The notes beneath the pieces are model-generated. The model was not told the DNA's origin, did not search any database, and worked only from the letters and a program-made list of their open reading frames with translations. DNA of 64,000 nucleotides from a virus: positions 32,001 through 96,000 of IMG/VR virus record IMGVR_UViG_3300030333_002703, one strand, 5' to 3'. Position numbers and translations under genes: made by a program. This document shows, one piece after another, positions 15,248 to 61,734 of this stretch; positions within the stretch are counted from its first letter, which is position 1; each line of letters starts with the position of its first letter.

Positions 15248-15251
15248 TATT

Positions 15252-37772: not shown

Positions 37773-37950
37773 GTTGTTCACCTATATCTTTTGTTCGTTT
37801 TGAATCACGCCACAGTGCATTGCACGTAGGGCATTCCCAAATCAGTATTCTATTATTTTCTCGCACGTACTTGCCTACAATACGAATGGCAAATACGAGG
37901 TCTCCACACTGGGGGCAATGCTGTGATAACGCATCACGCAGGTTGCCCAG
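37765..37950 (-). CDS. Small Zn-ribbon protein (possible CTG start)
   Basis: CPQC...WECPTC; G-rich GGAGG just upstream of in-frame CTG 37950; track ORF to 38100 overlaps the thermosome gene. Confidence 0.6.
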   Translation of the reverse strand: MGNLRDALSQHCPQCGDLVFAIRIVGKYVRENNRILIWECPTCNALWRDSKRTKDIGEQHE

Positions 37951-40110: not shown

Positions 40111-40148
40111 ACTAGTACCTCCGATACCTTGCCGGTAGTTGAGCCTTG

Positions 40149-41573
40149 TCATTCGTCTACCCATTGCACGAACTTGGATACACCCACCGCAGTTTCCTTG
40201 AAAAGTGACTTGGCATCACGGTAGTGTAGGAATTGTGTGTTGCGACTTAGCCCACCATTCTGCTTGGCATATGTCTCCAACAGGTCTGCCTTTCGCACCC
40301 AATCACCGGGTTTGTCACCCACCGATAGTTCAGGACACGCTGCGTATGCAGCCTTCCATGATGCTTGGCGTGACTGACGTGCTTTGGACACGTGTTCCAA
40401 TTCGACTTCGGACTCCAACCATGTAACCAGTTCTTCATACAAGTCATAGATAATCTCCGCCGCCATCTCAATGTGTTCGCCCTTGACTTCCCAACCGAAC
40501 TCAACCACTTCATCATCACTTTGTGTGTAGTCATCTAGCAATGACATATGTGTAGCCAGAATGATGGTGTAGTTGAGTAGATTGGGGATGAATGCACACA
40601 CAACGTCAGCCATTTGGGGGTCCATCATACGAACCAACTCATACATATGGTCCTTGTGTGAGTTCAGTAGTGGATAGAATGAATTGTCCACCGTGAACAT
40701 ATCATACATGGCATCCTGCACAATCTTCTCCTTCGGGTCAGTACCCAATTTAGCCCAGTCATTGCGCTCCATTTCGGCAATGCCTAGAACTCGGGCTTGT
40801 AGTGCCGCACGAACTGTTGAGAAATATGTAGCGAAGTCATCCAATGAGTACTCATATTCAGGAGGTCGCTTGAATGCTGTGTTCATACGCTCCTCGGATA
40901 CCTGTTCACGCCGTTCAATCGGCCAAGGTCTGATGAGTAGAAGAACACGTTGGAACACACCCTTCGTCAGTACCACTTCACGCACACCCTGTGGCGGGAA
41001 CGTGGTTAGCCAGAATGATACACGTGATTCAGTTTCAATGGAACCATCCTTCATGTGCTTGACCAGTGTGTTTGCTTTGGTTCCCACTGGGTTCATCGCT
41101 TGCTGTAGATACAATACGACTTCGCTAAGGTGTTGCTTCTTTGTTTCAAACAACAGACTACCCTCGTCAAAGTTCAATGCTTTCTTACCCGCAAGTAATC
41201 CTTCCTGTAGTTCCAACACCTGTTCTCCATCCTCTTCATACTTGTTCCATGAACCAATCAATGCTGCATCCGTTCCAGTGCTGAACATATCTTGTTTGAT
41301 ACCGAGGGTATCCAAGACCTCACCAGTGTGTTCCCATGCAATGGTCTTCCCAGACCGTGTTGGTTGAATCCAAAACAAATGTATGCGCGAATCTATATGC
41401 GAATTGTTAATCGGGATACGAAGGTAATCTACCGTCGCTTGTCCCTGCACATAGAAGAATGAAATCAATGCAGCCATCTCATTGTGATATGAAATGTCGC
41501 TGAACATATTGATGTATCCTTTCAGCAACGGAAACCGTTGCACCGCTTCGTAATTATCCCATTGTCGTGCCAT
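40149..41573 (-). CDS. MCM-like AAA+ ATPase, putative replicative helicase
   Basis: Walker A QPTRSGKT, TDAALIG, Walker B LNFDE, LQQAMN, GVFQR Arg finger. Confidence 0.7.
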   Translation of the reverse strand: MARQWDNYEAVQRFPLLKGYINMFSDISYHNEMAALISFFYVQGQATVDYLRIPINNSHIDSRIHLFWIQPTRSGKTIAWEHTGEVLDTLGIKQDMFSTGTDAALIGSWNKYEEDGEQVLELQEGLLAGKKALNFDEGSLLFETKKQHLSEVVLYLQQAMNPVGTKANTLVKHMKDGSIETESRVSFWLTTFPPQGVREVVLTKGVFQRVLLLIRPWPIERREQVSEERMNTAFKRPPEYEYSLDDFATYFSTVRAALQARVLGIAEMERNDWAKLGTDPKEKIVQDAMYDMFTVDNSFYPLLNSHKDHMYELVRMMDPQMADVVCAFIPNLLNYTIILATHMSLLDDYTQSDDEVVEFGWEVKGEHIEMAAEIIYDLYEELVTWLESEVELEHVSKARQSRQASWKAAYAACPELSVGDKPGDWVRKADLLETYAKQNGGLSRNTQFLHYRDAKSLFKETAVGVSKFVQWVDE

Positions 41574-41589
41574 GTTTTTACGCTCCAAT

Positions 41590-41620
41590 CATAAATTGTG
41601 AATTGTAAGGAGGATATAAA
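41590..41620 (-). promoter_or_regulatory. Conserved 31-bp viral promoter, copy A
   Basis: TTTATATCCTCCTTACAATTCACAATTTATG upstream of the MCM-like gene; matches copies B and C. Confidence 0.8.
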
Positions 41621-41659
41621 TGAATCAACCATACAATACAACAGGTGATACAACCAATA

Positions 41660-42364
41660 CTACACCCTCTTTGTGCGTTCAACACGCACTGGTTCTTCCG
41701 ATGTCAATACTTCTAACAAACGGTTACGCAGAACCTTACCCATACGCGGTACATTTTTCAATGCATCTGGGTGTAACATCTCTTCAATTGACCCGCATTC
41801 TTCTAGCAGGTTGTCTATCATTTCCGCACCGAATCCCGGTATCGCACGTAACATATCCATGCGTACATCATTGGTGGTCACACGGCGCACCGCGTGTGCG
41901 CTATGACGTGAAGCGGGTCGCACCAACTTGTCATGCAAACTGACAATGTAGGATGATGCTTCCAGCACATTGGTTGCTCGCACTACAGTGAACCCAAAGT
42001 CCGCTGTGATACGTGCGAGTGCGCTCATCACTTCACGAGAGATACGTGTGAATGTCATACGTGTGTTGGGGCTACGCCGCTTAAGTTTGCTGAAGTATGT
42101 GGCAACGTCACCCCATACGACAATAGCCGCACGTTCCACATTGGCATCCATGTTTTCCATCTGACGCCATAGATGACCAGACCTTGAACTTTCAATCAGG
42201 TCTGCAATGGTCTTGCATTCGACCACGCATCCACCTGCCAAGTAGTCACCCACGACAAGATGCTGTCGTTGAAATGACACAGGGGGTGAACGTGTTTCAC
42301 ATCTCTTTACGATGGCATCCACAAGAGGACCGCGCTCGTTACTATCAATCAATAAACTACTCAT
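41660..42364 (-). CDS. ERCC4/XPF structure-specific nuclease with HhH
   Basis: LIDSNE, VGDYL, ECKTIADL..S, GHLWRQM, IPGFG. Confidence 0.9.
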   Translation of the reverse strand: MSSLLIDSNERGPLVDAIVKRCETRSPPVSFQRQHLVVGDYLAGGCVVECKTIADLIESSRSGHLWRQMENMDANVERAAIVVWGDVATYFSKLKRRSPNTRMTFTRISREVMSALARITADFGFTVVRATNVLEASSYIVSLHDKLVRPASRHSAHAVRRVTTNDVRMDMLRAIPGFGAEMIDNLLEECGSIEEMLHPDALKNVPRMGKVLRNRLLEVLTSEEPVRVERTKRV

Positions 42365-42497
42365 ACCATAACCTCAATAAAAATACGATTGGGAATAGAA
42401 TGGCTAACACGCCTAACCAAAATACCAAACCAACACAGGTAACACCGAGTGTCACCCAGCCGGTCACAGTTCTTAGGTTGATTTTCTTCTCTCCCAT
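42357..42497 (-). CDS. 46-aa membrane microprotein (not in ORF track)
   Basis: MGEKKINLRTVTGWVTLGVTCVGLVFWLGVLAILFPIVFLLRLWYE fills the gap between MTase and ERCC4. Confidence 0.55.
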   Translation of the reverse strand: MGEKKINLRTVTGWVTLGVTCVGLVFWLGVLAILFPIVFLLRLWYE

Positions 42498-42509
42498 ACC
42501 CTGTCGGAA

Positions 42510-43946
42510 TCACCAATACTCCTTCAACTCTACTGCTGATTCACGGTACTTACTCACGGTCAGACCTGTGCGTTCTTGTTTCAAACGACGTTCCGATAGT
42601 TCAGCGTATTCAGGGTTGAGTTCTATGCCAATGTATGACCGCCCGTTCTCCAATGCCACAATCCCTGTCGTTCCAGACCCACTGAATGGGTCCACGATGA
42701 CCGATGGTTTGGTTGGGTGGTCGAGTAAGTCAAGGTCAGAAACATACACTTTGACAGTTTTGACCTTATCTTTGGTAAGGTTCTCGATGATGCGTTGTTT
42801 GACAGGGCCACCACCGTTTTCTTCTCGCCCGTCATACTTGGATTGTTGATTGACATACTCACCTTTCATGGTCGCTCCCCATTTTTGTTGGAGATGTTCA
42901 GCATTATCTTCAGATGTAGCGCGACCCGGTATGACAACCTCATGCTTCTCAATGGTCCCATGACATTCACAGTCTGGTGTGAATTGATTCTCCGGTTGGC
43001 GGCGAACCCAAGGCACACCACAGTCAGCACAACACGTGTGAGATGAACTCGCACGGATGATTGGTTCAATGAGATGCTTTGGATACACGGCGAAGTGTGC
43101 GCCGGGGAATGGTTGTGGATTGAAATGCCACACCGTTCTCATGTTGCGTAGTAAGCCACCTTCGGAATCATCATCTGCCATTGGCTCTGCATACGATTGG
43201 ATGTCATAGTAGTATCGTTTAGATTTACTGAAGTGGAAGAAGAACTCATGGCTACGTGTGCATCGGTCTTGCACAGGTTCAGGCATGGATACACCACCAC
43301 GATAATGTGGCCCACTGATTGACTTGGCCCATACAATATCGTTGCGAAGATACCAACCCGCTCTACGTGCCGCGAATGCAAACAACCAAGGCAATCCCAC
43401 CAAGTCCTTCTCCTTGTATCCATCGGGTAGAGATTTAGGTCTGAATTGACCGGCTTCATCACGATGCTTCTGCAATCCATATTGTTCTGGATTTGTCTTG
43501 GCGCTTCCTTTGCTCATGTATGAGTCACCAAGATTCACCCACAGTGTGCCAGATGGTTTGAGGATGCGTCGGCACTCCTCAAATATCTCCACCAGATGTT
43601 CAACGAAATGTTCGGGTGATTGTTCAAGACCTAGTTGCCCTTTCCATGCTCCACATTTGTTGCACGTTTCAAATGTGATGGGGTCGTCACGATTGTTAGC
43701 CCCTTGATTGCTGGCTTGTTTCTCGCTCTTACCATCGTCATTGCTACGACGTTGCCATGAGATGGGGTCATCCCAATCATGTTCGCATTCCTTATCTCCA
43801 CCGAATACTACAGGGTCAGTCTTGTAATCACGTAACCCCCAGTATGGTGGTGACGTTATCACTGTATCCACAGTTTCAGTTTCTATCTCACGCAACTTCT
43901 CAATCGCATGACCTATCTTAATTTCACAAGTTGTATCATCTCTCAT
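42510..43946 (-). CDS. Beta-class N4-cytosine/N6-adenine DNA methyltransferase
   Basis: TSPPYW before DPFSGSGTT; HFAVYP; GGAGGT RBS before ATG 43946. Confidence 0.93.
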   Translation of the reverse strand: MRDDTTCEIKIGHAIEKLREIETETVDTVITSPPYWGLRDYKTDPVVFGGDKECEHDWDDPISWQRRSNDDGKSEKQASNQGANNRDDPITFETCNKCGAWKGQLGLEQSPEHFVEHLVEIFEECRRILKPSGTLWVNLGDSYMSKGSAKTNPEQYGLQKHRDEAGQFRPKSLPDGYKEKDLVGLPWLFAFAARRAGWYLRNDIVWAKSISGPHYRGGVSMPEPVQDRCTRSHEFFFHFSKSKRYYYDIQSYAEPMADDDSEGGLLRNMRTVWHFNPQPFPGAHFAVYPKHLIEPIIRASSSHTCCADCGVPWVRRQPENQFTPDCECHGTIEKHEVVIPGRATSEDNAEHLQQKWGATMKGEYVNQQSKYDGREENGGGPVKQRIIENLTKDKVKTVKVYVSDLDLLDHPTKPSVIVDPFSGSGTTGIVALENGRSYIGIELNPEYAELSERRLKQERTGLTVSKYRESAVELKEYW

Positions 43947-45061
43947 TGTGTTACCTCCTTTTGCTCTGGGATTGTTCCAGTGCCATCCCAGAATTGGCAC
44001 TTACCTACGCAGTATCCACGATTGAATAGACTCGCACATGATGTGTGTTTATACGGTCCTTCAACTATGTGTTTCGTGTAGTTCCGTGTGATTTCAGGGT
44101 TGAAATCTACCCACTGAATGGTACGAATGAAGTCTGTAATCTGGTCGATGTGCTTCGGTGCTAATCCATTCACTGTTTGCGGTGGTCGGAAGTGGCGCAA
44201 CCGAGCAGCCAAGTATGCTACAAGATGATACCGTGCATCATGTGTAGGGTTGCTGCCCGTTCTACAAGACGACGCTTGTAGGCATGGAAGAACGGCGATG
44301 CCGTTCATGGTAAGAGTGGGAATGTTTTCGGTGTCATGGTTGAGCATACCATACAACGAATCTTCTAGGCTTATAGTTGTATCGAGATGACATCCGGTGG
44401 AACCGTAACTGAAGTATCCTGACCTGTGTGTTTGTGCAAGTTCTTGAATGTCCTCCCATTCTAACGTGGTCAATTCTTCAGTCGTCAATGGGATACTCCA
44501 CAGACCACGCTTGACATTGTATGAATTAGGAACGCGAATGAGAGATGCAAGGTCGAATGTAACGGTGGGGTCAATACATTGGAGTGACAGTTCGTTTGCC
44601 CATGACCTCACAAGACATCGACCCGCGCCCTTGAGAATAGAACTCATCTCGTATGTGCCAATTGTGTGTACACGGTCTAACTTGACCCACACATGGAACC
44701 CACCACCGGAGAACCAGATACCATGTTTGATGTCTTGTTCCAGTAGATAGTTGTGAAGGCGTCGAACCTCATTGAGTACCACAGTTGGTGGTACTTCCAC
44801 CATTGAACCACCCTGTATCATTTGGCAATCGAAGTCCAATACAAAGTGACGCACAATAGCAGTTTGATAATTCCCGCGTCGGTAGTTGGGTTCCTTGAGT
44901 TGTTGGAATCCGAACACACTCATGTATGCGTCAGATGCATTGCCTAGACTCGACCACCATTTGTTGAACTCATCCTTGTCGTGTACGACACGACGGAACA
45001 GATTGACTTCGCGGGGGAAGTCAAGAACTAGTAACGCTTTGCCACTTCCACTTGATTCCAT
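43943..45061 (-). CDS. Archaeo-eukaryotic primase, PriS fused to PriL-like Fe-S domain
   Basis: LDFD, FSGGGFHVW, D..SLIRVPNSYN; C-terminal LPCL...THDARY...SCASL..GYCVGKC. Confidence 0.88.
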   Translation of the reverse strand: MESSGSGKALLVLDFPREVNLFRRVVHDKDEFNKWWSSLGNASDAYMSVFGFQQLKEPNYRRGNYQTAIVRHFVLDFDCQMIQGGSMVEVPPTVVLNEVRRLHNYLLEQDIKHGIWFSGGGFHVWVKLDRVHTIGTYEMSSILKGAGRCLVRSWANELSLQCIDPTVTFDLASLIRVPNSYNVKRGLWSIPLTTEELTTLEWEDIQELAQTHRSGYFSYGSTGCHLDTTISLEDSLYGMLNHDTENIPTLTMNGIAVLPCLQASSCRTGSNPTHDARYHLVAYLAARLRHFRPPQTVNGLAPKHIDQITDFIRTIQWVDFNPEITRNYTKHIVEGPYKHTSCASLFNRGYCVGKCQFWDGTGTIPEQKEVTQ

Positions 45062-45288
45062 TTCTCAATCCACTCCATTAGTCGTTCTAATATCTCGTGT
45101 GCTTCTTCAGGGTCTTGTACATAAAGGGGGTCCACTACAAAACGAATCGAATTGCCATCGTGGATTGCATCAAACCCACGTGCTTTCTTTGCTGCCCCCA
45201 TATACACGGAGACCTCGGCGTTGAGAACCGAGCGTTGTAGTATCCATTCAACAGCCACTGTGAATGCGTTGACTTCTAATCCATTCAT
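45028..45288 (-). CDS. Hypothetical protein
   Basis: GGAGG RBS; overlaps both neighbours. Confidence 0.6.
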   Translation of the reverse strand: MNGLEVNAFTVAVEWILQRSVLNAEVSVYMGAAKKARGFDAIHDGNSIRFVVDPLYVQDPEEAHEILERLMEWIEKWNQVEVAKRY

Positions 45289-46202
45289 TCATTGACCTCC
45301 TTCCAGATTGGTTCGGCCCCATGTGATACCTCAATGGGGTTCTCATACGGTGTCCACTTTGGACAGAACTGCATGAAGTCACAATGACTACACTTGTATT
45401 CCTGATTGTCATTGACAACGGGGAAGTCCTGTTCAAGATATGACTTGACAAGACGAACGATACGTTTCTTCATGGCGGTGATGGTTCGCTTGGCCGCAGG
45501 TATTACATCCCAATGTTCTGCATTGGGGAACCGCCATGCCCACCATTTGACATCACCTAGGTTCACATCGGACTCATCGAGAAGGTATGTGTAGTATGCC
45601 ATCTCGCCCCTCATCTTGGGTGGCGTGTACTTGGGATTGAACTTCCCTGTTTTCAGTTCCATTAGAATCAAACCACCTGTATCATCCTTGAAGATGCGGT
45701 CGATGATACCACGTAGATGTACCTTGACGATACCATGTTCCGGCACATCAACTTCCACGATGGCATCAAGGTCTAACTCGTTACCAGTGGGTAGGAAATC
45801 CTCGGGTTCGTTACAATGTTTGAGTCGTGCGACATCATTGTGTATCATCCAGTCCTGTAGGACTTCCTCTTTATCTGCGTACTCGCCCTCGGCTTCGGGA
45901 TACATCTGCTTGAGCAAACTGTATGCCTTTTTCTCATCACCATCTTTGGCGGCTGCAATTGCCTGTTCCATACGTGGTGTGTCACACACTAGATTCTCAT
46001 AGAACTCTTCCTGTCGGTTGTGAACATTGTCACCAATCACAAGATAGTCACGTTCCAATGGCTCGGTGTGGCACACCTTACTCAACCACATCTGTTGACT
46101 ACACCAATTGGAGTATGTGTCTAGCGTGGACTTACTAATCCGAATCATCTTATCCGAATCAGGAGTCCATGTGTATGTCGATAACTTGTTCATCTCACCC
46201 AT
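45285..46202 (-). CDS. PD-(D/E)xK (RecB/Cas4-like) exonuclease with Fe-S Cys
   Basis: ISKS...WC, IGDNVH, LRGIIDRI, ELKTGK, CSHCDFMQFCP; track start 46229. Confidence 0.88.
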   Translation of the reverse strand: MGEMNKLSTYTWTPDSDKMIRISKSTLDTYSNWCSQQMWLSKVCHTEPLERDYLVIGDNVHNRQEEFYENLVCDTPRMEQAIAAAKDGDEKKAYSLLKQMYPEAEGEYADKEEVLQDWMIHNDVARLKHCNEPEDFLPTGNELDLDAIVEVDVPEHGIVKVHLRGIIDRIFKDDTGGLILMELKTGKFNPKYTPPKMRGEMAYYTYLLDESDVNLGDVKWWAWRFPNAEHWDVIPAAKRTITAMKKRIVRLVKSYLEQDFPVVNDNQEYKCSHCDFMQFCPKWTPYENPIEVSHGAEPIWKEVNE

Positions 46203-46206
46203 TGTA

Positions 46207-46539
46207 TCATCCCTGTTGGAAGTATCCACTTACGTCTACTTTGTATGGCCCACTGTGTTGTTGCTCATCTCCACCATGTTTTGTCACTGTGTATTGGTTG
46301 GGGTCTGTTTGTGGTTGTTCTACCACTGGTGGGGCTTGAGGAGTATTTGAATCGCGGGTGTCCCATTCGGTTTGTTCCTTCCCAAGATTTGCAGGTGGAG
46401 TCAGACTAGCCGGGTTCAATAGACCGTCAACGATTTGCTTGACCTTTTCCAATGCTTCTGATGTAATGGATAACGCCTCGCGTAGCCGCTCGTTCTCATC
46501 CTTCAATGCTTGTGCTTGCGCTATGAAATCACTGCTCAT
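46207..46539 (-). CDS. Coiled-coil hypothetical protein
   Basis: AGGAGG RBS; LKDENERLREAL. Confidence 0.65.
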   Translation of the reverse strand: MSSDFIAQAQALKDENERLREALSITSEALEKVKQIVDGLLNPASLTPPANLGKEQTEWDTRDSNTPQAPPVVEQPQTDPNQYTVTKHGGDEQQHSGPYKVDVSGYFQQG

Positions 46540-46715
46540 GATTCATCCTCCTTACAGTATGGACATCCAATGTGACGCATAGCACCCAGTGTATCTACTG
46601 TGTATTTGTAGCCACAACTATTGCACTCCATCCATCTGAAGTCCTCCTTGTATGCAGGTGCATAGCATTCACAGTCAGCACCACCACATCGTGTGCATAT
46701 CCTTTGAGCCATCAT
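46536..46715 (-). CDS. 59-aa Cys-rich Zn-binding microprotein (not in ORF track)
   Basis: MMAQRICTRCGGADCECY...ECNSCG...GCPYCKEDES; GAGGAGG RBS; ATGA overlaps at both ends. Confidence 0.75.
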   Translation of the reverse strand: MMAQRICTRCGGADCECYAPAYKEDFRWMECNSCGYKYTVDTLGAMRHIGCPYCKEDES

Positions 46716-46954
46716 CGTTCCTCCTCATGCGGTGACTTTGGCAACCATGTTTCTTCCATTGAGTCTAACTGTGCTACAATGTCAATCAATTTCTCAATGT
46801 AGACTACGGCATCCATTAGTTCTTCTTGTAGATGAACCAACCATTCCGATGGAGATAAGTCACGGCGTTCCATTGACTTACCATACTTGTGCCATCCTTT
46901 GTCAGCACGTGCCTGTATCTTACGGCACACATCATCCTCAATCTGACTCATCAT
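46712..46954 (-). CDS. MazG-like all-alpha NTP pyrophosphatase-family protein
   Basis: KYGKSMERRDL...WLVHLQEELMDAVVY (EExxD); track start 47074. Confidence 0.6.
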   Translation of the reverse strand: MMSQIEDDVCRKIQARADKGWHKYGKSMERRDLSPSEWLVHLQEELMDAVVYIEKLIDIVAQLDSMEETWLPKSPHEEER

Positions 46955-47117
46955 CAAGACCCCAGATATCTTCGCCACCACGTTTGACGTGCGCCCTACG
47001 CACCTTGTCTTTGAACCATTCCCAAATGGTTGTCTGTCGTGTTGGCTTCGGCTGTTCTTCTTCAAGGGGTTCAAATGTCATACCCCATTCTTCCAATGTT
47101 GTTTGTCTTGTTGTCAT
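46938..47117 (-). CDS. 59-aa microprotein with two PIP-box motifs
   Basis: RQTTLEEWG and RQTTIWEWF; GGAGGTG RBS before ATG 47117. Confidence 0.75.
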   Translation of the reverse strand: MTTRQTTLEEWGMTFEPLEEEQPKPTRQTTIWEWFKDKVRRAHVKRGGEDIWGLDDESD

Positions 47118-47323
47118 TCTTGCACCTCCAGTGCTATTGTGTGTTGGCACACCGGACATCGTAGAATGTCCTTGCGCCCTTCGACTGTCATAGACTCCGG
47201 GTCTGTGTCCAATCGAACTTCAAGGCAGTATGCACGTTGCCATGCATCACACGCATTGTTGTTTGCTCCTGTGGGTAGATGCCCATACGGAGTCTCGCTT
47301 AATTCTCTTGATTTATTACTCAT
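47114..47323 (-). CDS. Small Cys-containing protein
   Basis: C..W...C...RCPVC; GGTGA before ATG 47323. Confidence 0.6.
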   Translation of the reverse strand: MSNKSRELSETPYGHLPTGANNNACDAWQRAYCLEVRLDTDPESMTVEGRKDILRCPVCQHTIALEVQE

Positions 47324-47328
47324 AATTT

Positions 47329-49602
47329 TCACCATAATTTCTTTGGTCTGTGCTTATCCACCGCCATGCCGAGGTCCCAGTCAAGAACATCGAACACCAA
47401 TTTTAATTTCTTACGCACTAACTTGTCTATAATTCCTTCGGTATCGAATGTGAATCCATCTAATTCTGATATGGACCTGCACCCGACAACCTTTGTGGCT
47501 GGCATCCCATGTGGCACATCGCTAACGTAGCACCACAATACACTGTCACCCTCTATGAATGGTTCATCGGGTTCCATGTACCAGTTGTAGTATCGTGCAG
47601 CCCTCGCATACCCACCGGCAGTGGTTGGGTAGTGTCGCTTCGGGCTATGTGATGAGGTCTCGGTGGCCTCAATCTGTTTGGATAGTCGCGTACTGTATGA
47701 CAGTTCATCCAATGGAATCTCATTCTTGCGTATCTGATTCACCCATGAGCGCACAAACTGTGTGACATCTACTTCGGATGCACCATCGGCAACCAACATC
47801 AACACACCCTTCTGCAATTCACGAATGGCTTTGGGTGTGCTACTATGCTTCATCTCAAATCCTGATACCTTCAACTTACCCGCATCAGATTCAGGCCACT
47901 GTATGATTCCAGCGTATCTGTTCTTGACATCCCCACAGAACCAGTGTGGCATCCATGCTTCTGCTTCAGCAAACAGTTTGTAATTTCCAGTTTCGTGTTG
48001 GATAATGTCAGTCACAATCTGTGACACTTGTTCCATCTCATCCAATGGACATCGGATAAACACCGAGTCGGTGTGTCCGAATAGAACTTCATACCCCATC
48101 TCGTATGCGTGGTCACGTAGTGACCCAATAGCACGACGACCCTCGGATAAGATGGTGTCTGCAATGGCTAGGTCTGCCATGCCATGCCCCAATGATTCAG
48201 CGCACAGTCCATACAGCGAAGCCATCACACGCTTGACCGCCTTCTCCAGAATCCTGTCACCACTGTCTTTCAATTTCTGTCGTTCCTCAAACAGATACTC
48301 AATGACGGATGGGAGGATGCCTTGTTCTTCTTGTTCCCAATGTGTTCCATTCAACATGGTACGTGTAGTCTCACTGGGTTCATCCCTACGTGTAGTCCAA
48401 CACAGATTGTTGCCCAACATGATTGATGGGTACAACCCCTTGAAATCTAACACGGCTACACCATCATGCAAACCGGCTACCGGGTCCATGACATCAGCAC
48501 CTTGTAGTTGTCCTTTCTCACGGCGTCGTGACCTGTCACGTGTGGGGAACTTGAGGTCTGTTCGACGGCACACTAGACCACGTGCGAAGTTGCCCACTTC
48601 AAACGTGGAAGTCAATGACACACCACAGAACCGAACCATGTTGGTGAAGAACTCGGTACAATTGAGGAACATATCAATGTCATACATCAATCTAACGTCT
48701 TGCATACAGTAGTCAGTGAGCCGATAGAAATTATCATACCAATCATTCGACAAGTCCACATCATCTTTACCACCCAATTCTAGGTGCTTACCGATGGCAT
48801 CTAACTTGCGGGATGGGAACTGGCCGTTGCCACTATCCTTCCACACCCGTTCAAATCCTGAACCGTCACTGGCCTTACACGCTGTGTCGAATACCCACCG
48901 CCCCTTGATGGGTTGGTCGTTGTATCTGTATCCGTCGTGACCATCCTTGACCTTGCGAACCTGACCCAATGGTGACAGTCGCTTGTAGTTCTTGAATCGT
49001 CTAACCATGTGCGGTATGTCAGCCCACATTGCTGCGTGGGCTATGAGCATATCAAAATCCATATCCTCAATGTATTGGATGACGGCTTCATGCACCGCCT
49101 CCTCACTGGTATAGATGTGTAGTGTGTATCCATCACGTTGTTCAACTTCGTATTGGTTCTGACCTTCACGCCATGCGAAGCAGACCTGTTCTTGTGTGAA
49201 GTTATCAATCGCTGCCCAGCATTGTGTGAAGTCGTTGTTGTCATCAGGGTTCCACTCGATGTCAAAGTAACACTTACGTGGAGTCCACGCTGGCATGGTA
49301 GGGTGATTGTCAATCAACCATCGGTCTGTGAAAGGCACGTCAGCCTCCCACGTCTTTGGATACTTGGCTCGCTCATCATACAATTCGTTGGGTGTGGTAA
49401 GTTCATGCTTTGTTAATGGGAAACGGTCTACTGCATACGCATGAACATGAGGATGCTTAACATCACATTCGCTATAGAAATAATGCCTAAACGTATGGTC
49501 AGTACCTTCAATCAACTCCCCATTGGGGTTGCGGTATCGCCAATAGATGGCTTCGCCTCTCTCCCCTCGCGGGTAGTATGAATCAACAAGCATGAGTATC
49601 AC
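47329..49602 (-). CDS. polB: Family B DNA polymerase
   Basis: Exo FDIE, YCMQD; pol motifs LDFKGLYPS, KRVMASLYG, FGHTDS, KNRYAG. Confidence 0.95.
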   Translation of the reverse strand: MILMLVDSYYPRGERGEAIYWRYRNPNGELIEGTDHTFRHYFYSECDVKHPHVHAYAVDRFPLTKHELTTPNELYDERAKYPKTWEADVPFTDRWLIDNHPTMPAWTPRKCYFDIEWNPDDNNDFTQCWAAIDNFTQEQVCFAWREGQNQYEVEQRDGYTLHIYTSEEAVHEAVIQYIEDMDFDMLIAHAAMWADIPHMVRRFKNYKRLSPLGQVRKVKDGHDGYRYNDQPIKGRWVFDTACKASDGSGFERVWKDSGNGQFPSRKLDAIGKHLELGGKDDVDLSNDWYDNFYRLTDYCMQDVRLMYDIDMFLNCTEFFTNMVRFCGVSLTSTFEVGNFARGLVCRRTDLKFPTRDRSRRREKGQLQGADVMDPVAGLHDGVAVLDFKGLYPSIMLGNNLCWTTRRDEPSETTRTMLNGTHWEQEEQGILPSVIEYLFEERQKLKDSGDRILEKAVKRVMASLYGLCAESLGHGMADLAIADTILSEGRRAIGSLRDHAYEMGYEVLFGHTDSVFIRCPLDEMEQVSQIVTDIIQHETGNYKLFAEAEAWMPHWFCGDVKNRYAGIIQWPESDAGKLKVSGFEMKHSSTPKAIRELQKGVLMLVADGASEVDVTQFVRSWVNQIRKNEIPLDELSYSTRLSKQIEATETSSHSPKRHYPTTAGGYARAARYYNWYMEPDEPFIEGDSVLWCYVSDVPHGMPATKVVGCRSISELDGFTFDTEGIIDKLVRKKLKLVFDVLDWDLGMAVDKHRPKKLW

Positions 49603-50375
49603 TCATCATCATTGTCTTGATTCACGACAACGAGAAGGCATTGCTTTTCCTTGTGGTTGAATACCAACACCGAATCATCACCGTAGTAGATTTCAGCCGT
49701 GCCTGCTGGCAAGCACGATAGAACTTCAGGGAACCAAGGTCCGAACTGGGACTTTGTTACATCGTCACACGCAACATCTTGCACGTGGAACTTGTGGAAC
49801 ATCTGACCACTGACTGTTGTACCAGTATGAATCACACCTTCCTTTGTATCAGGAACCACTGTGAATTGATACGGTTTGTCATTACCAACCACACTACCCA
49901 GTGCGGCGACCTGTGATAGGTCCTTGAGATTGACAACACCATACCCACCAAGTGGGGCATCACCAAATGATTCCCAGTTGGATGCACCGGCATCGTTCAC
50001 CAGTTTAGATGCCAATGCCAGTGACTGTGCTGAACGCACGGTGGATGTCGCTGGTAATGAAATCGTACTGTTACCTGAAGTCAGTCGTAGTGGGCCGGTT
50101 CGTTTCTCGCTGATGTCCTGTTCCAACGTCACGCTATCATCCGTGCAAGCACGGAGGAACTTCAAGACCTTGGACAGGTCTGCGATAACAATACCGCCAC
50201 CCGTTGATGTGGTGTTGGTATCCACGGACAGACTCTTCGTGATGAAGTGGGTGGCTAATGCCACACCACCCACCAACGATGAGTCCTTCACGTCTAACCG
50301 TAGGTCCTCAACGCCCGGTCCAAAACTGGACAGGAACGCTGACAAATCTGCTCGCTTCAATGTTACTTGTGTCAT
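49599..50375 (-). CDS. Probable divergent sliding clamp (PCNA-like)
   Basis: 258 aa, two-domain alpha/beta pattern (IADLSKVLKFLRACTDDSVTL); adjacent to PolB, with RFC nearby; mainly size and synteny. Confidence 0.55.
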   Translation of the reverse strand: MTQVTLKRADLSAFLSSFGPGVEDLRLDVKDSSLVGGVALATHFITKSLSVDTNTTSTGGGIVIADLSKVLKFLRACTDDSVTLEQDISEKRTGPLRLTSGNSTISLPATSTVRSAQSLALASKLVNDAGASNWESFGDAPLGGYGVVNLKDLSQVAALGSVVGNDKPYQFTVVPDTKEGVIHTGTTVSGQMFHKFHVQDVACDDVTKSQFGPWFPEVLSCLPAGTAEIYYGDDSVLVFNHKEKQCLLVVVNQDNDDE

Positions 50376-50710
50376 GCTTTCAACTCCTTGTATGCTTCTC
50401 TCCATTTACGTTCATGCCGTCGCATCTGACTCAACTTGTAACGGTTAATTTCTGCTTGTCGTGAAGCCCAACCTTTGTCCCAATGTGGTCCTGCTCTTGG
50501 GGTATTGGGAATAAGTTCGGCAATCATCTGTTTGAGTTTGCCCATCGTTCCATATTTATTCAGCATTAGATTGTGCATGAACTGTGGGTATGGTGTACAC
50601 GTAATGCAATCCTTTGCACCACAGTTGTGTTCCAAATTAGCATCTAGTATGGATGCCCACTTACCTTCCTTCACACCGAGTTGTTTGATGTCTATACAAT
50701 CCAATGTCAT
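50372..50710 (-). CDS. Hypothetical protein
   Basis: ATGA overlaps; HNCGAKDCITC cluster. Confidence 0.6.
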   Translation of the reverse strand: MTLDCIDIKQLGVKEGKWASILDANLEHNCGAKDCITCTPYPQFMHNLMLNKYGTMGKLKQMIAELIPNTPRAGPHWDKGWASRQAEINRYKLSQMRRHERKWREAYKELKA

Positions 50711-51687
50711 AGTGTCCCATCCCGTAGTTCGCTTAGGCCATACCATTCTGGGTCGCCGTCTTGTCTGGTGATAGCAATAACACGCTTCTTGTTCTGCAAT
50801 TTGATGTTGGTTTTCTGTTTCCAGAACTCAACGGTGAACTCCGTCTTGCCTGTTTTCTTTCCATCATCATCTAGAACATTCTCACGGCGACACCATAGAA
50901 TTTGATTCAGGTTGCCGTCAGTATTCTTCTCCCAGTCTGGTTTCCATGAACCCGTCTGTTCGTTGCGGAACACCTCGGCCTTGAGATGTGTCTCCCAATA
51001 GACCTCGACACCACGACTCATGAGTTCACGACAGATGGCAGTCAGTTGGTGGAACCGTGTGGAACGGATGCTCCAGTTCCATTGGTTGCCAACCAATCGG
51101 TTGGGGTCGGATGCTTCGATACCATCCTTTGCTTTGCCCAACTCAATGACTTTCATGTTCACGATGCACACGTTATCCCACTGGTCAACTGCTGTCACAA
51201 GGAACTTCGCTAGGCGTGGTCCCTCATATCCTTCAGCGTTCTGTTTGATGGCTTCGTTAACTGCCCACCGACCAATCTCCATCACTCTAGCATGAGTTGC
51301 GGGGTAGTCATATGTGGTACGGTCTTCGGTTGCCATTACCCAAGGGGATAGAACACGAATGTTCTTAGATTTGTCACGATGGTATGCCGACTTACAAGCC
51401 GACGCACCACCATCGAAATCAACGGCAAGGATGTAGTCACCATTGTCTATCTGCTCTTGGGTCAGACTGTCCATTACAATACCAGACTTGCCTGTCCCCT
51501 CAAAACCAACGACACCACAGAATACGTGGGAACCATGCGGGGTATCCCCAGCGGCTTCCACTTCGCCACCGATGCCACCAGAGGTGGTGGGTGTTGCCAC
51601 TACCACCTCCGGTGTAACTTCGATAGGTTTCTCGTCTGCGTCATCAACTTTGTTCTCTTCTTGTTTCACTGCGTTAAATCCGCTCAT
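50707..51687 (-). CDS. RecA-fold ATPase (Sak4/AAA_24-like recombinase)
   Basis: GFEGTGKS, AVDFDGG, W..R..RF, VYWETH. Confidence 0.75.
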   Translation of the reverse strand: MSGFNAVKQEENKVDDADEKPIEVTPEVVVATPTTSGGIGGEVEAAGDTPHGSHVFCGVVGFEGTGKSGIVMDSLTQEQIDNGDYILAVDFDGGASACKSAYHRDKSKNIRVLSPWVMATEDRTTYDYPATHARVMEIGRWAVNEAIKQNAEGYEGPRLAKFLVTAVDQWDNVCIVNMKVIELGKAKDGIEASDPNRLVGNQWNWSIRSTRFHQLTAICRELMSRGVEVYWETHLKAEVFRNEQTGSWKPDWEKNTDGNLNQILWCRRENVLDDDGKKTGKTEFTVEFWKQKTNIKLQNKKRVIAITRQDGDPEWYGLSELRDGTL

Positions 51688-51698
51688 TATTTTTCACC

Positions 51699-52988
51699 TC
51701 AATCAAATTGTTCTGCGTTGGTGTCGCCACCTTCAGCCGCAGGTACTACGAACCGAGGGACAGCGAACACACCAAACGCATTGACTTGTGGTACTTCACC
51801 ACTGTCTGTAGCACGAACACCAAGACGACCAAACACCAGCACAGTTGAGCGCTCGGCGTAAGCCTTCCAGTTCCCACCATCATTGTATTCAAATGCATGG
51901 CCTTTCTCTTTCAAGTTGCCAGAGATACGCACGGATACTTCAGAACGTAGCCCACTGGGGTGTTCCTTCTGCAAGTCCCATGATGTTAGACGAAGGTTGT
52001 ACACCTTGCCGGTTTCATCGTAGTCGTTGTCCCATCCTTCCTTGAAGAGAGATGTGACCTTACCCTTAATGAGAACCAACGGGCCGACCGGATTGATACC
52101 CGGTACTTCCTTCATGTTTCGCTGGTAGTATTCAAGCAAGTCCGGTAGTGGAACGTGGTGCTTGTGGATGGCTGGATTGACACCAAACTTTTCCGGCGCA
52201 AGTTGCGCTCGCACATCAGTGTCTACAAAGTCATCTGTGTACACAATCTCGTTGGCCCAGTTGCGTGGGACTCGGAGAATGTCAGCGAAGTCTGGGTTCA
52301 CATCTTCTCGGGTGTTCGGAATCACCTTGACTCGGCACGGCTTCCACATAGTGGGTGTCGCATCAATGTCTGATGAATCGAATCGCCATAGTGTAACTTC
52401 ATCACCGAAGTCTCCCTCGCTGTTACCGAGGAAGTAGTAGTAACGACTCTTCAATACGGGTCGAATCGGGTCGCCCTTTGAATCGTAGTTGCCGGTCTGA
52501 AGAATAGCAATGGGGCCGTTGCCGGTTTCCCATAGGAACCAAGGGTCCTCATCTTCAGGTTCTTCCGTGTCGTGTAGTCCATCTGCCTTGCGTAGATGCC
52601 ATGTGCCATCTTGCTTTACACACTCGGCAACCAGTCCGGCTTCGACAGCCTTCCCCGGTTCCTCAAGGTATGCAGCAACGGCTTGGTCGCGTAGATTCTT
52701 GCGCTTGTCACGCCACTTACCATCTACACCGACCAACATACCGACATAGTTCACCGTCTCAAACGATGAACCTCCGCTGCGGCGTTGGACTACGAATCCT
52801 TCGCTGGCTTCAAGGAGGAAATCTTCATCCTCATCCTGCCAATTTTCAACAGCGAACTTGTCCGACAAAAACTGTACGAACTTCTGCTTTGCGTCATCAA
52901 GGGTGATGCCATTTGCATCAGCATATCCTTGTAGGCGTTCAACCACGCCTTCGGGCCATTCTTTTGTGTCCTTCTTTGGAAATTCCAT
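51699..52988 (-). CDS. Putative RPA-like ssDNA-binding protein
   Basis: OB-like C-terminus (LIKGKVT...STVLVFGRL...VNAFGVFA), acidic end; between RFC and recombinase. Confidence 0.5.
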   Translation of the reverse strand: MEFPKKDTKEWPEGVVERLQGYADANGITLDDAKQKFVQFLSDKFAVENWQDEDEDFLLEASEGFVVQRRSGGSSFETVNYVGMLVGVDGKWRDKRKNLRDQAVAAYLEEPGKAVEAGLVAECVKQDGTWHLRKADGLHDTEEPEDEDPWFLWETGNGPIAILQTGNYDSKGDPIRPVLKSRYYYFLGNSEGDFGDEVTLWRFDSSDIDATPTMWKPCRVKVIPNTREDVNPDFADILRVPRNWANEIVYTDDFVDTDVRAQLAPEKFGVNPAIHKHHVPLPDLLEYYQRNMKEVPGINPVGPLVLIKGKVTSLFKEGWDNDYDETGKVYNLRLTSWDLQKEHPSGLRSEVSVRISGNLKEKGHAFEYNDGGNWKAYAERSTVLVFGRLGVRATDSGEVPQVNAFGVFAVPRFVVPAAEGGDTNAEQFD

Positions 52989-52990
52989 AT

Positions 52991-53944
52991 CTAGTTCACT
53001 CCTTTATTTTTTGTATCCTTTAGTTTCGCTACGAAGTAGTCGTAGTATGCATCATCCCCTGCGGGCCATGTATGCACACGTTCTACGAACTCCCCCCACG
53101 TTACCAAAAAGGAATAGTATTGGTCAGGCGTCAAGCCCAACGAATATACATTGTCTCTCAATTGCTTCATCACATACAATCTTGGGAGACCTTTGGCTGC
53201 GACCTTTCGCAACTCGGTAGATAGTGATTGCCATTCACCCGCCGCAATTGATAGTGCGGGGTCAGCAAAGTCAGCCTGTTCAATCAACAGACGTTCTTCC
53301 AATGCTTCATCATTTTGAGGCAACGATTGTAAGATGTCTATTGCACTACGCAAGTCACCATTACAGGTCTGATTTAGATGTTTGAAATGTTCATTCCAAG
53401 ATTGTGGTAATGATTCTTGGTCAGATATGTAACAGAATAATTCATCTGCTGCATCGTCAGTTGCACGACTAAATCTATATGTCATACAACGTGACTTGAG
53501 TGCATCGGTAATGGCTGACTCATCATTGGCTGTTAGAATGAACAGCGTTTGGTCAGTGCATTGCTCCATCGTATTTCTCATTGCTTCCTGCGCTTGCTTG
53601 GTCAGACCATCGGCCTCATCAAACAAGATTACTTTACGTGCTGTACCCATGCCGCCCTGTTGTGCAATCATCTTGACCTGATTCCTAACGAAATCTATTC
53701 CTCGGTCATCAGATGCATTGAATGTTACGTAATTGATGGGGTCGAACCATTCACCAAGCATATGTCGTGCCACTACACCGGCTGCTGTTGTCTTGCCAGT
53801 GCCGGGTGGCCCAACCAATAGTATGGCTGCTGGATATTCACCCCGTTCAATCCATTCCTCACAATCAGCACGAAAATCTGGGCAACCAACCATTTCATCA
53901 ATCGTGGTTGGCCGGTATCGTTCTCGCCATTGATTCGTCATCAT
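52991..53944 (-). CDS. rfcS: Replication factor C small subunit (clamp loader)
   Basis: WRERYRP, GPPGTGKT, NASDDRGID, DEADGLT..AQ, SRC, GDLR. Confidence 0.95.
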   Translation of the reverse strand: MMTNQWRERYRPTTIDEMVGCPDFRADCEEWIERGEYPAAILLVGPPGTGKTTAAGVVARHMLGEWFDPINYVTFNASDDRGIDFVRNQVKMIAQQGGMGTARKVILFDEADGLTKQAQEAMRNTMEQCTDQTLFILTANDESAITDALKSRCMTYRFSRATDDAADELFCYISDQESLPQSWNEHFKHLNQTCNGDLRSAIDILQSLPQNDEALEERLLIEQADFADPALSIAAGEWQSLSTELRKVAAKGLPRLYVMKQLRDNVYSLGLTPDQYYSFLVTWGEFVERVHTWPAGDDAYYDYFVAKLKDTKNKGVN

Positions 53945-57488: not shown

Positions 57489-57692
57489 TTATTCCTCCGC
57501 TTCTACTCTTTCTTTTGTACCTAGTTTGTACACATATGTTGGTCTATCTATGACCCGCATATAGCCACAATGGATTACCTGCCCATTGATGTAAATGTTG
57601 TGTGAATGAGAAGATGTTCTTTTCTTCATCCCACATCCAGAACATTGCCTAAGCGCCATCCGGTCTGCACTACGTGACATTACGAACCCCAC
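57489..57692 (-). CDS. Small Zn-binding protein
   Basis: CSGCG...HCGYMR. Confidence 0.55.
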   Translation of the reverse strand: MGFVMSRSADRMALRQCSGCGMKKRTSSHSHNIYINGQVIHCGYMRVIDRPTYVYKLGTKERVEAEE

Positions 57693-58075
57693 TCCTTGAG
57701 TGACCGCTGACGGTTCACATCATCGTAGATTTCGTCAATGATTGCTTGTGCTTCGGACTGGAACGCACCTCCTAGATTCATTATGCTTGATGTACTGATT
57801 GGCTTTGATTTAACCACATCATGTATCTCATCCTCCGTGATGAGTCCATCTTCAATGGCCTCGGCGGGTGTTCGGGTCACTGCCGCCGTGCTTTTTCTCA
57901 ACACTAGTGTGTCACCATCGAATGCGTCGATGCAATCCTGACAGATGGGTAACGACAATGCAAACTTGAAGTCTGGGTCTTTGGGCCAATTGGGGTCAGA
58001 TGGTGCGCCGCACCAATTCACTGATGCAGTGTGTGGCCCCTTGGTGATGTGTATGACCTTTGGTAAGTCCGACAC
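57680..58075 (-). CDS. Hypothetical protein (H/C..CxxC module, SIMNL motif)
   Basis: IH...WCG...ICQDC; SSIMNLGG. Confidence 0.6.
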   Translation of the reverse strand: MSDLPKVIHITKGPHTASVNWCGAPSDPNWPKDPDFKFALSLPICQDCIDAFDGDTLVLRKSTAAVTRTPAEAIEDGLITEDEIHDVVKSKPISTSSIMNLGGAFQSEAQAIIDEIYDDVNRQRSLKEWGS

Positions 58076-61722: not shown

Positions 61723-61734
61723 AATGCCATACTC

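What the first reader, a model, noticed from the sequence alone, without database searches (positions are those of the whole stretch)
46938..47117. 59-aa microprotein made of two PIP boxes beside PolB and the clamp: candidate PCNA sponge or hijacker
Seen: MTTRQTTLEEWG...KPTRQTTIWEWFKD with a strong GGAGGTG RBS and no catalytic domain. Known: the PIP box is Q-x-x-[LIM]-x-x-aromatic-aromatic, and archaeal PolB and FEN1 bind PCNA through QxxLxxW/FF. The viral PolB here ends in KHRPKKLW with no canonical PIP. Inference: a bivalent peptide could occupy two sites of the host PCNA trimer and block host replication, while the virus uses its own divergent clamp and motif.
Basis: partly seen in the sequence, partly recalled or inferred. 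Interest (0 to 1): 0.75.

Follow-up and report, generated by a model that had tools for sequence, protein, structure and literature searches.

The report
Viral microprotein of two clamp-docking motifs
A virus of abundant marine archaea encodes, just after its DNA polymerase gene, a real and conserved 59-residue disordered protein. Its only conserved parts are two copies of the peptide that replication enzymes use to dock on the sliding clamp PCNA, so it most likely works by occupying a clamp's docking pocket. Binding is untested, and it is not settled whether the target is the host's clamp or the virus's own.

Summary
ORF 46938-47117 (minus strand, 59 aa) has a GGAGGTG ribosome site and an ATGA start/stop overlap with the upstream gene. 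It carries QTTLEEWG and QTTIWEWF. It lies in the replication arm of a magrovirus (a virus of Poseidoniales), after PolB and a Zn-ribbon ORF.

Relatives with PolB only 33-66% identical keep two or three such motifs in the same slot, while linkers and tails differ. Synonymous changes dominate. AlphaFold gives no fold.

A degenerate-codon scan of IMG/VR found the 12-14-residue unit (RQTTLxE-aromatic-G-hydrophobic-x-F) in 113 viral contigs. It occurs as 17-30-aa micro-ORFs, as doublets, and at the N-termini of larger proteins.

Distant magrovirus PolBs end in the same flavour (RQKTLEEWF-stop). This window's PolB tail (RPKKLW) aligns to that box as a contracted remnant. Host clamp clients end alike (FEN1 QTSLFSF, photolyase QTTLLDFG).

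So it is a PIP-type clamp-docking microprotein. The "host PCNA sponge" reading is only partly supported:
- The linkers in most relatives (5-7 aa) are too short to span two pockets of one ring.
- Related viral polymerases use the same motif, so the viral clamp is an equally good target.

Binding is untested. This scan reported the same family earlier on other DNA (a 47-aa form).

The parts
46938..47117 (-). Microprotein ORF, 59 aa plus stop. Its 3' end overlaps the start of the next gene (46712-46951).
   Evidence: homologues
47123..47129 (-). Shine-Dalgarno-like GGAGGTG, 5 nt upstream of the ATG.
   Evidence: a similar site in relatives
47070..47108 (-). Unit 1 (residues 4-16): a PIP-like box QTTLEEWG plus the conserved G-M-T-F-E extension. 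This 'G-type' unit is the family's basic repeat.
47013..47036 (-). Motif 2 (residues 28-35): QTTIWEWF, a full canonical PIP box of the 'WF-type' also found at PolB C-termini of distant magroviruses.
46938..47012 (-). Variable basic-then-acidic tail (residues 36-59). It is not conserved among close homologues. AlphaFold predicts a helix over residues 31-46 in this lineage only.
   Evidence: both natural non-synonymous variants fall here
47114..47335 (-). Upstream 73-aa Cys-rich (Zn-ribbon-like) ORF, translationally coupled to the microprotein. It is conserved in relatives.
47329..49602 (-). Family B DNA polymerase. The C-terminal tail RPKKLW (47332-47349) aligns to the C-terminal PIP box of distant magrovirus PolBs.
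49599..50375 (-). Virus-encoded sliding clamp with a PCNA fold. It is too diverged from host PCNA for sequence methods to match.
57686..57709 (-). QRSLKEWG, one residue from the C-terminus of the 131-aa ORF 57680-58075. It is the only other PIP-type motif in a plausible gene of the window, and it is of the same G-type.

Best explanation
The ORF encodes an intrinsically disordered microprotein made of two PIP-type (PCNA-interacting peptide) docking motifs. It works as a free clamp-pocket ligand. Each motif inserts its Leu/Ile and aromatic residues into the hydrophobic pocket on the front face of a PCNA-family clamp subunit. The G-hydrophobic-x-F extension of unit 1 probably pairs with the interdomain connector loop, as the tail of p21 does. 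With no other domain, its effect would be to occupy pockets and so exclude or time other clamp clients. Having two or three motifs raises local concentration and rebinding rather than setting a fixed geometry.

Shown here: the gene is real, it is under selection at the peptide level, it has no fold, and its motif matches the tails of true clamp clients of related viruses and of the host.

Inferred: that it binds a clamp at all, and what follows from binding.

The target is open. I lean only slightly (about 55:45) to host PCNA over the virus's own clamp, and it may bind both.
For: 1. Conservation pattern of a short linear motif.
- Syntenic ORFs beside PolBs 60-66% identical to this one keep only the Q, L/I, acidic and aromatic positions.
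- More distant magrovirus groups, with PolB 33-37% identical, keep a doublet right after PolB.

2. Peptide-level selection.
- 78 distinct DNA versions of the unit were found. Leu uses all six codons, and Thr and Gly use four each.
- L004 against L006 shows 7 synonymous and 2 conservative changes.
- In a metagenome variant, the three changes in codons 1-38 are all synonymous and the two non-synonymous changes lie in the tail.

3. Translation signals: GGAGGTG and ATGA coupling, with similar signals in relatives.

4. No fold: AlphaFold with 24 sequences gives pLDDT 62 and pTM 0.27, with helical turns only at the motifs.

5. The same flavour sits at the extreme C-terminus of true clamp clients.
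- Distant magrovirus PolBs end in RQKTLEEWF, KQKTLDEWW or NQRGLGEWW.
- Host Poseidoniales FEN1 ends in QTSLFSF(DG), PolD DP2 in QLSLADFL, RNase HII in QRTLF and a photolyase in QTTLLDFGN.

6. A second protein in the window ends in QRSLKEWG-S-stop.

7. Independent internal duplications point to selection for several motifs. In this lineage both copies carry the TRQTT flank, and in L004/L006 the box QTKLTEY is repeated.
Against: - No binding evidence of any kind exists.
- Unit 1 has Gly, not an aromatic residue, at PIP position 8. In two lineages (L138, L139) it has also lost the Gln.
- In another magrovirus group the same unit is the N-terminus of 146-168-aa proteins, directly followed by a hydrophobic stretch and an AGC or SGC lipobox. 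A clamp ligand is not expected there.
- The unit also resembles the 23-residue repeat of DUF7487.
- Free PIP peptides would compete with the virus's own polymerase in those groups whose PolB carries the same motif.
Confidence: 0.68

Rival explanations
1. Host-directed PCNA sponge. The microprotein binds host PCNA only, displaces host PolD, FEN1 and RNase HII, and shuts down host replication and repair. The viral replisome runs on its own clamp through a different tail.
For: - The G-type unit looks like host client tails, with one aromatic residue followed by G or D (FEN1 QTSLFSFDG, photolyase QTTLLDFGN).
- The PolB tail in this window is not a canonical PIP.
- The viral clamp is so diverged from host PCNA that only a weak N-domain match remains. 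Its C-terminus also lacks the host's LAPR motif.
- The syntenic slot is empty in the L005 lineage, so the protein is not a core replisome part. That record is only a 19%-complete fragment.
Against: - Distant magrovirus PolBs carry the same motif at their C-terminus, and this PolB tail aligns to it. The viral clamp therefore probably reads PIP-like tails too.
- Linkers of 5-7 residues in most relatives rule out occupying two pockets of one ring as the conserved mode. The distance between pockets, about 45-50 Å, is my own estimate from PCNA geometry.
Confidence: 0.35
2. Regulator or adaptor of the virus's own clamp. The microprotein binds the viral clamp. It could time polymerase access, keep host clients off the viral clamp, or supply in trans the PIP function that this lineage's PolB tail has lost.
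For: - It sits in the PolB-clamp gene block and is translationally coupled.
- A doublet directly follows PolB in several groups whose PolB tail is the short PK-x-Y-W/F form.
- Motif 2 (WF-type) matches the C-terminal PolB box of the groups that kept it.
- The tail alignment shows Q to P and a two-residue deletion in this PolB.
- One subfamily adds a conserved Cys-rich N-terminus and a conserved C-tail, which suggests extra partners.
Against: - No PolB-binding element is evident, and tails are not conserved across the family.
- Groups whose PolB keeps a full PIP also encode free single and double units elsewhere in the genome.
- The short PolB tail is itself conserved and may suffice for clamp binding.
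Confidence: 0.3
3. Not a clamp ligand. The unit is a docking or targeting tag for another partner, for example a membrane or secretion-related signal, or a tag for a viral hub protein.
For: - The unit forms the n-region in front of a hydrophobic stretch and a lipobox in 146-168-aa proteins of another magrovirus group.
- In those proteins, SRQTTLK loosely recalls the Tat consensus S-R-R-x-F-L-K.
Against: - There is no twin arginine.
- The micro-ORFs have no hydrophobic segment.
- The same flavour ends a DNA polymerase and host repair and replication enzymes. That fits PCNA and does not fit secretion.
Confidence: 0.08
4. A minimal pair of DUF7487-type repeats. That repeat of unknown function occurs in large phage and giant-virus proteins. 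On this reading the microprotein is a small folded module, perhaps nucleic-acid binding.
For: - P0160 has six KQTNLEKYGFEF-like repeats with a period of 23 residues and matches Pfam DUF7487.
- hhalign of the family against P0160 gives probability 47% and E 2e-4 over 28 columns.
- The Q-to-Q spacing in this window's protein is also 23 residues.
Against: - None of 24 family members matches DUF7487 in Pfam, even at E up to 10.
- The usual spacing in the family is 13-16 residues, not 23.
- No confident fold is predicted.
- Single-unit 17-aa ORFs and C-terminal polymerase tails do not fit a folded repeat.
Confidence: 0.04

Closest known systems
C-terminal PIP boxes of archaeal clamp clients (PolB, FEN1, RFC-L, RNase HII, PolD DP2; for example PDB 1isq, 3a2f, 6t7y, which appeared)
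   Same: Same Q-x-x-L/I-x-x-aromatic template. The same flavour is seen here in Poseidoniales FEN1, DP2, RNase HII and photolyase tails and in distant magrovirus PolB tails.
   Different: In those proteins the motif tethers an enzyme to the clamp. Here two motifs are the whole protein, with no enzyme attached. Unit 1 also carries an invariant Gly at position 8 and a conserved hydrophobic-x-F extension.
p21 (CDKN1A) C-terminal PIP peptide and disordered PIP proteins such as p15/PAF
   Same: A disordered protein or tail whose job is to sit in the PIP pocket and compete with other clients. A strand-forming extension follows the box (my knowledge; PMC9267019 and PMC10380293 were listed but not read).
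   Different: p21 is eukaryotic, has a single motif and carries a CDK-inhibitor domain. There is no TD-type degron signature here. No homology is implied.
TIP, the Thermococcales inhibitor of PCNA (Li et al. 2014; Altieri et al. 2016, as summarised in PMC6204406)
   Same: A small archaeal protein that binds PCNA through a PIP-like motif and inhibits it. In this window's lineage, motif 2 is followed by a predicted 16-residue helix, as in TIP.
   Different: TIP has one non-canonical PIP plus a 17-residue helix that breaks the trimer. The helix predicted here is not conserved even in close homologues. Sequence relatedness was not tested because no TIP sequence was at hand.
Viral recruitment of host clamps: SIRV2 gp1 and others binding Sulfolobus PCNA (Gardner et al. 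2014, cited in PMC5537682), and the WSSV polymerase PIP box (PMC3984155)
   Same: Virus-encoded proteins that address a PCNA clamp.
   Different: Those viruses lack their own clamp and recruit the host's for replication. This virus encodes a clamp and a clamp loader, and the microprotein has nothing to recruit the clamp to.
Multi-PIP microproteins of giant viruses, and the 47-aa magrovirus form, noted earlier in this scan (e1-5568293, e1-5520255, e1-5900874, e1-5900887, e1-5843953)
   Same: Same architecture: a conserved viral micro-ORF whose only conserved parts are two or three PIP motifs. The 47-aa form is a close homologue of this one (compare P0006).
   Different: The giant-virus cases use eukaryote-type boxes and are unrelated in sequence. 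These are AI notes, not publications.

Membership tests
PIP-box (PCNA-interacting peptide) proteins | Match to Q-x-x-[LIVM]-x-x-[FWY]-[FWY] | tested here: met
   Motif 2 (QTTIWEWF) matches all positions. Motif 1 (QTTLEEWG) matches 7 of 8, with Gly at position 8. Host FEN1 and photolyase tails also lack a second aromatic residue.
PIP-box (PCNA-interacting peptide) proteins | The motif lies in a disordered region or at a terminus | tested here: met
   AlphaFold gives pLDDT 62 and pTM 0.27. Unit 1 starts at residue 4. Many relatives are just the motif.
PIP-box (PCNA-interacting peptide) proteins | Template positions are conserved in relatives while the flanks drift | tested here: met
PIP-box (PCNA-interacting peptide) proteins | The same motif is used by proven classes of clamp clients in the same system | tested here: met
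   Distant magrovirus PolB C-termini. Host FEN1, DP2 and RNase HII tails.
PIP-box (PCNA-interacting peptide) proteins | Physical binding to a PCNA clamp through the motif | not testable with these tools
   This needs ITC, pull-down or a structure. The one co-folding job gave no verdict.
TIP (Thermococcales inhibitor of PCNA) | A PIP-like motif followed by a conserved amphipathic helix of about 17 residues that disrupts the trimer | tested here: inconclusive
   A helix at residues 31-46 is predicted in this protein, but that segment is replaced in close homologues P0006 and P0007. Sequence homology to TIP was not tested.
Pfam DUF7487 | Score over the Pfam gathering threshold | tested here: not met
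   0 of 24 family members match, even at E up to 10. There is only a motif-level hhalign resemblance to P0160.
Tat (twin-arginine) signal peptides | An S/T-R-R-x-F-L-K motif followed by a hydrophobic region | tested here: not met
   The pair is R-Q, not R-R. This protein has no hydrophobic region. Only the lipoprotein-like relatives have one.

The most novel reading that the evidence does not exclude
Magroviruses run a private clamp-addressing code built from one 12-14-residue unit. They deploy it as polymerase tails, free 17-60-aa peptides and membrane-anchored N-termini. In this window's lineage the PIP function has moved off the polymerase, whose tail has decayed to RPKKLW, into a separate two-unit microprotein. 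Its two unit types (G-type resembling host client tails, WF-type resembling viral PolB tails) address two different clamps, host PCNA and the viral clamp. The protein would then either discriminate between the two rings or couple them, instead of simply plugging one.
Probability: 0.12. Interest if true: 0.85.

Novelty: new variant of a known kind. Interest (0 to 1): 0.6.

Why it matters
Poseidoniales are among the most abundant archaea of the surface ocean. Their viruses are uncultured and known only from metagenomes, and how they take over the host is unknown.

A free-standing, multi-copy clamp-docking peptide would be a simple and testable takeover or replication-control device. It can be tested with synthetic peptides and two recombinant clamps, without culturing either virus or host.

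I found no paper describing such a viral protein. The magrovirus papers I checked list the clamp but mention no PIP motif or small ORF. In Philosof et al. (PMC5434244) a term search found no mention of PIP or a small protein. I read the ICTV profile (PMC10768690) in full.

The unit is very widespread: 113 IMG/VR contigs, including ORFs of 17-30 codons that gene callers may miss. It therefore also serves as a useful annotation marker for this virus order.

Natural high-affinity clamp ligands are of wider interest as leads for clamp inhibitors (PMC6204406).

Tried and rejected
- Co-folding of the viral clamp (alignment A1) with the microprotein (alignment A3) returned no verdict, with score 0.01. 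It is not evidence either way.
The contexts of the database homologues could not be fetched that way.
- No RNA run holder was listed for the region, so expression remains unknown.
- tblastn against the GenBank phage collection found no match.
- The ESM Atlas gave no usable hit.
- A genome-contig scan with the viral thermosome found nothing. The host was reached instead through an alignment of transcription factor B (TFB) sequences.
- The search for related loci with the family alignment found 191 pattern matches but confirmed none by tblastn, because the query is too short. A degenerate DNA pattern scan replaced it. A first pattern had too few fixed bases.
- Sequence and profile searches of the viral clamp against PDB and against host PCNA were uninformative. 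The PIP-pocket residues of the viral clamp therefore could not be compared with the host's.
- Homologues of the 131-aa ORF with the PIP-like tail were sought in five related records. Only weak N-terminal matches appeared, so conservation of its tail is unknown.
- I considered whether the conserved unit is a DNA element instead of a peptide. I rejected this because of the synonymous codon spread.
- I considered a read-through tail of PolB. I rejected it for this window because a separate 73-aa ORF lies between PolB and the microprotein, and the microprotein has its own ribosome site.

Full report
**Where the ORF is.** The window is the genome of a tailed archaeal virus with two divergent arms. 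The plus arm (1-36846) holds large structural genes, including a 6024-aa ORF. The minus arm holds replication genes:
- TFB (36843-37781)
- a thermosome (37934-39505)
- an ERCC4 nuclease
- a DNA methylase
- a primase-like protein
- a Cas4-like nuclease
- PolB (47329-49602)
- an RFC-like ATPase (52991-53947)

This is the gene set described for magroviruses, the viruses of Poseidoniales (PMC5434244; PMC10768690). The viral TFB is 71% identical to very abundant cellular TFBs, and their genomic loci are labelled Poseidoniales, Poseidoniaceae or Thalassarchaeaceae. No whole genome is held for the window.

**The observation.** The ORF lies on the minus strand at 46938-47117 and encodes 59 aa.
- Its ATG overlaps the TGA of the upstream 73-aa Cys-rich ORF as ATGA.
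- GGAGGTG lies 5 nt upstream.
- Its last codons overlap the start of the next small gene.
- It carries QTTLEEWG (residues 5-12) and QTTIWEWF (residues 28-35), each preceded by TR.
- Pfam finds nothing.
- PolB ends in KHRPKKLW.

The ORF upstream of PolB (49599-50375) has no Pfam or PDB sequence match. With 19 homologues, AlphaFold gives a confident two-domain model (pLDDT 88). That model matches archaeal PCNAs and bacterial beta clamps at E about 1e-13. All factual parts of the finding therefore hold.

**Is it a gene?**
- *Close homologues* (79-100% identical over the first 38 residues) exist in several metagenome sources. They keep both motifs while the tail is replaced. One homologue (P0005) is fused to the downstream gene.
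- *Syntenic relatives.* Loci whose PolB is only 60-66% identical to this one have, in the same slot, short ORFs that share almost nothing except the motif template. One lineage has QKTLYDYG and QSTIWDWL five residues apart (L002). One has three boxes (L004, L006). Others have QTTLEEFG with QTKLTDFY (L008, L137). Two have lost the first Gln (L138, L139).
- *Substitutions.* L004 and L006 differ by 7 synonymous and 2 conservative changes. In a metagenome contig of another study, the three differences in codons 1-38 are all third-position synonymous. The two non-synonymous differences fall in the tail.
- *Translation signals.* Ribosome-site-like sequences precede the ORF in relatives too.
- *No fold.* AlphaFold with 24 family sequences gives no fold (pLDDT 62, pTM 0.27), only a helical turn at LEEW and a helix after motif 2.

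Together this is the signature of a translated, disordered protein whose function resides in short linear motifs.

**The family is much larger than the finding suggests.** A profile search of 1.8 billion representatives found 19 hits. Most are 29-81-aa proteins that are simply two units of the form RQT-T/K-L-x-E-aromatic-G-F/M/L-x-F/L-E. A degenerate-codon scan of IMG/VR for one such unit returned 113 contigs, and 87 of them carry recognisable magrovirus replication genes. The unit occurs in four forms:
- As single-unit ORFs of 17-30 codons.
- As doublets of 28-66 aa, often directly after PolB in groups whose PolB is only 33-37% identical to this one.
- As the N-terminus of a roughly 56-aa protein.
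- As the N-terminus of 146-168-aa proteins, where it runs straight into a hydrophobic stretch and an AGC or SGC lipobox.

Across 78 distinct DNA versions, Leu uses all six codons and Thr and Gly use four each. Residues the pattern did not fix are also conserved: the preceding E-N-S and the following F-x-F-E. Selection therefore acts on the peptide, not on a DNA element.

**What the unit is.** Three independent comparisons point to a clamp-docking (PIP) motif.
1. *Viral polymerases.* PolBs of a distant magrovirus group (20-28% identical over the C-terminal part) end exactly in a canonical PIP box of the same flavour: RQKTLEEWF-stop, KQKTLDEWW-stop, RQRDLGEWF-stop, NQRGLGEWW-stop and SQSTLGEWF-stop. 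The L216 protein that ends this way matches Pfam DNA_pol_B.
2. *Host clamp clients.* In five Poseidoniales genomes the classical clients end in the same template. FEN1 ends in QTSLFSF(DG) or QSTLFDF, PolD DP2 in QLSLADFL, and RNase HII in QRTLF. A photolyase ends in QTTLLDFGN, almost the viral G-type unit.
3. *Within the window.* The only other PIP-type hit in a plausible gene is QRSLKEWG, one residue from the C-terminus of ORF 57680-58075.

Extreme C-terminal placement on polymerases and repair or replication nucleases is how archaeal PIP boxes are normally found (my knowledge; PDB 1isq, 3a2f and 6t7y appeared).

The data cut both ways.

For host PCNA:
- The G-type unit resembles host tails, which have one aromatic residue followed by G or D.
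- The viral clamp is so diverged that profile comparison with host PCNA aligns only part of the N-domain (E 0.02). Its C-terminus lacks the host's Y-F-L-A-P-R motif.
- The syntenic slot is empty in the L005 lineage, so the protein is accessory. That record is a 19%-complete fragment.

For the viral clamp:
- Related viral polymerases carry the same motif.
- MAFFT aligns this window's tail R-P-K-K-L-W to R-Q-K-T-L-E-E-W-F of L216, with Q to P and a two-residue deletion. The tail looks like a contracted PIP rather than a different code.
- The short tail is conserved as PK-x-Y-W or PK-S-Y-F across several groups.

I therefore hold the target open, with a slight lean to the host.

**Valency.** The 15-residue linker in this protein could in principle reach a neighbouring pocket on one ring. 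My estimate from PCNA geometry is that pockets are about 45-50 Å apart. Most relatives have only 5-7 residues between boxes, which cannot reach. Independent internal duplications occurred in this lineage (both copies share TRQTT) and in L004/L006. Copy number varies from 1 to 3. These points suggest selection for more motifs, giving avidity or rebinding, rather than for a fixed bivalent geometry.

**Rivals.**
- *DUF7487.* A 617-aa protein (P0160) with six KQTNLEKYGFEF-like repeats matched the family profile and belongs to Pfam DUF7487. hhalign gives 47% probability. However, no family member matches DUF7487 even at E 10. The usual unit spacing is 13-16 residues, not 23. No fold is predicted. 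I rate this rival low.
- *Lipoprotein-like proteins.* These raise the possibility of a non-clamp docking or targeting tag. There is no twin arginine, though, and the polymerase and FEN1 tails are hard to explain that way. If the PIP reading is right, these proteins could tether a clamp to the membrane. That is speculation.

**Comparison with known systems and novelty.** Functionally the closest analogues are the p21 tail and PAF15 (disordered pocket competitors) and TIP of Thermococcales, a small archaeal PCNA inhibitor (PMC6204406). SIRV2 proteins that bind host PCNA (PMC5537682) and the WSSV polymerase PIP (PMC3984155) show viruses addressing host clamps. Neither is a free multi-PIP peptide. 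I found no paper describing this family.

This scan has already reported the same family on other DNA as a 47-aa form (e1-5900874, e1-5900887, e1-5843953) and analogous three-PIP microproteins in giant viruses (e1-5568293, e1-5520255). My reading agrees with those.
- the measured host PIP repertoire
- the family-wide unit and its 113-contig spread
- the canonical PIP on distant magrovirus PolBs
- the decayed PolB tail in this window
- the linker argument against one-ring bivalency

**Limits.** Nothing here shows binding. The single co-folding job gave no verdict.

Noticed in passing
L153:7009-7491, L171:5593-6096, L229:7573-8055 and about 20 more loci: In another magrovirus group the same RQTTL-x-E-F/Y-G unit is the N-terminus of 146-168-aa proteins. 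It runs directly into a hydrophobic stretch plus an AGC or SGC lipobox. These could be membrane-anchored proteins with a clamp-docking N-terminus, or the unit may have a second, non-clamp role. Pfam finds nothing.
   Followed up: partly
L150-L262 (for example L202, L212, L216:12299-12333): There are many ORFs of only 17-30 codons that are a single unit, such as M-E-N-S-RQTTLEEFGFTFE-stop. They are conserved at the peptide level with varied codons. ORFs this short may be missed by gene callers (my inference).
   Followed up: partly
window 47332-47349; L216:850-1842: The PolB C-terminal tail RPKKLW aligns to the canonical C-terminal PIP box RQKTLEEWF of a distant magrovirus PolB, with Q to P and a two-residue deletion. 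The short PK-x-Y-W/F tail is conserved in several groups. In L216 the PolB match is a separate 331-aa C-terminal piece, consistent with the split PolB drawn for Aoguangviridae.
   Followed up: partly
window 57680-58075 (-), 60067-61740 (-), 63675-63905 (-), 8004-8390 (+): A second short motif, S-I-M-D/N-L, recurs in four ORFs of the window, once at a C-terminus. It is absent from the complete related genome G001. The 131-aa ORF carries both this motif and the PIP-like tail.
   Followed up: partly
P0152, P0162, P0164, P0168; L137:4097-4351; L008:3224-3469: One subfamily embeds the double unit between a Cys-rich N-terminal extension (K-W-x-P-W, C-x-C) and a conserved C-tail (G-L/M-H-G-x-P-R-x-x-R-G). 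These hint at extra partners.
   Followed up: no
window 46712-46951 (-) and P0005: The next gene is a small conserved helical protein (MSxIEDxVCxKI... signature) found after the microprotein in nearly all relatives. I labelled it MazG-like from its sequence alone, and Pfam gives no significant hit. In one metagenome sequence (P0005) it is fused in frame to the microprotein.
   Followed up: no
window 15186-33260 (+): There is a single 6024-aa ORF in the structural arm. A 5980-aa counterpart exists in the complete relative G001 at 35359-53301.
   Followed up: no
L145:481-1527: A Poseidoniales DNA photolyase (Pfam FAD_binding_7) ends in a PIP-type tail, QTTLLDFGN. This suggests PCNA-coupled photorepair in the host.
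   Followed up: no
G001:28034-28471 (+): A 145-aa ORF in the structural arm of the related genome has QMTLDQFG 16 residues from its C-terminus. It was not examined.
   Followed up: no
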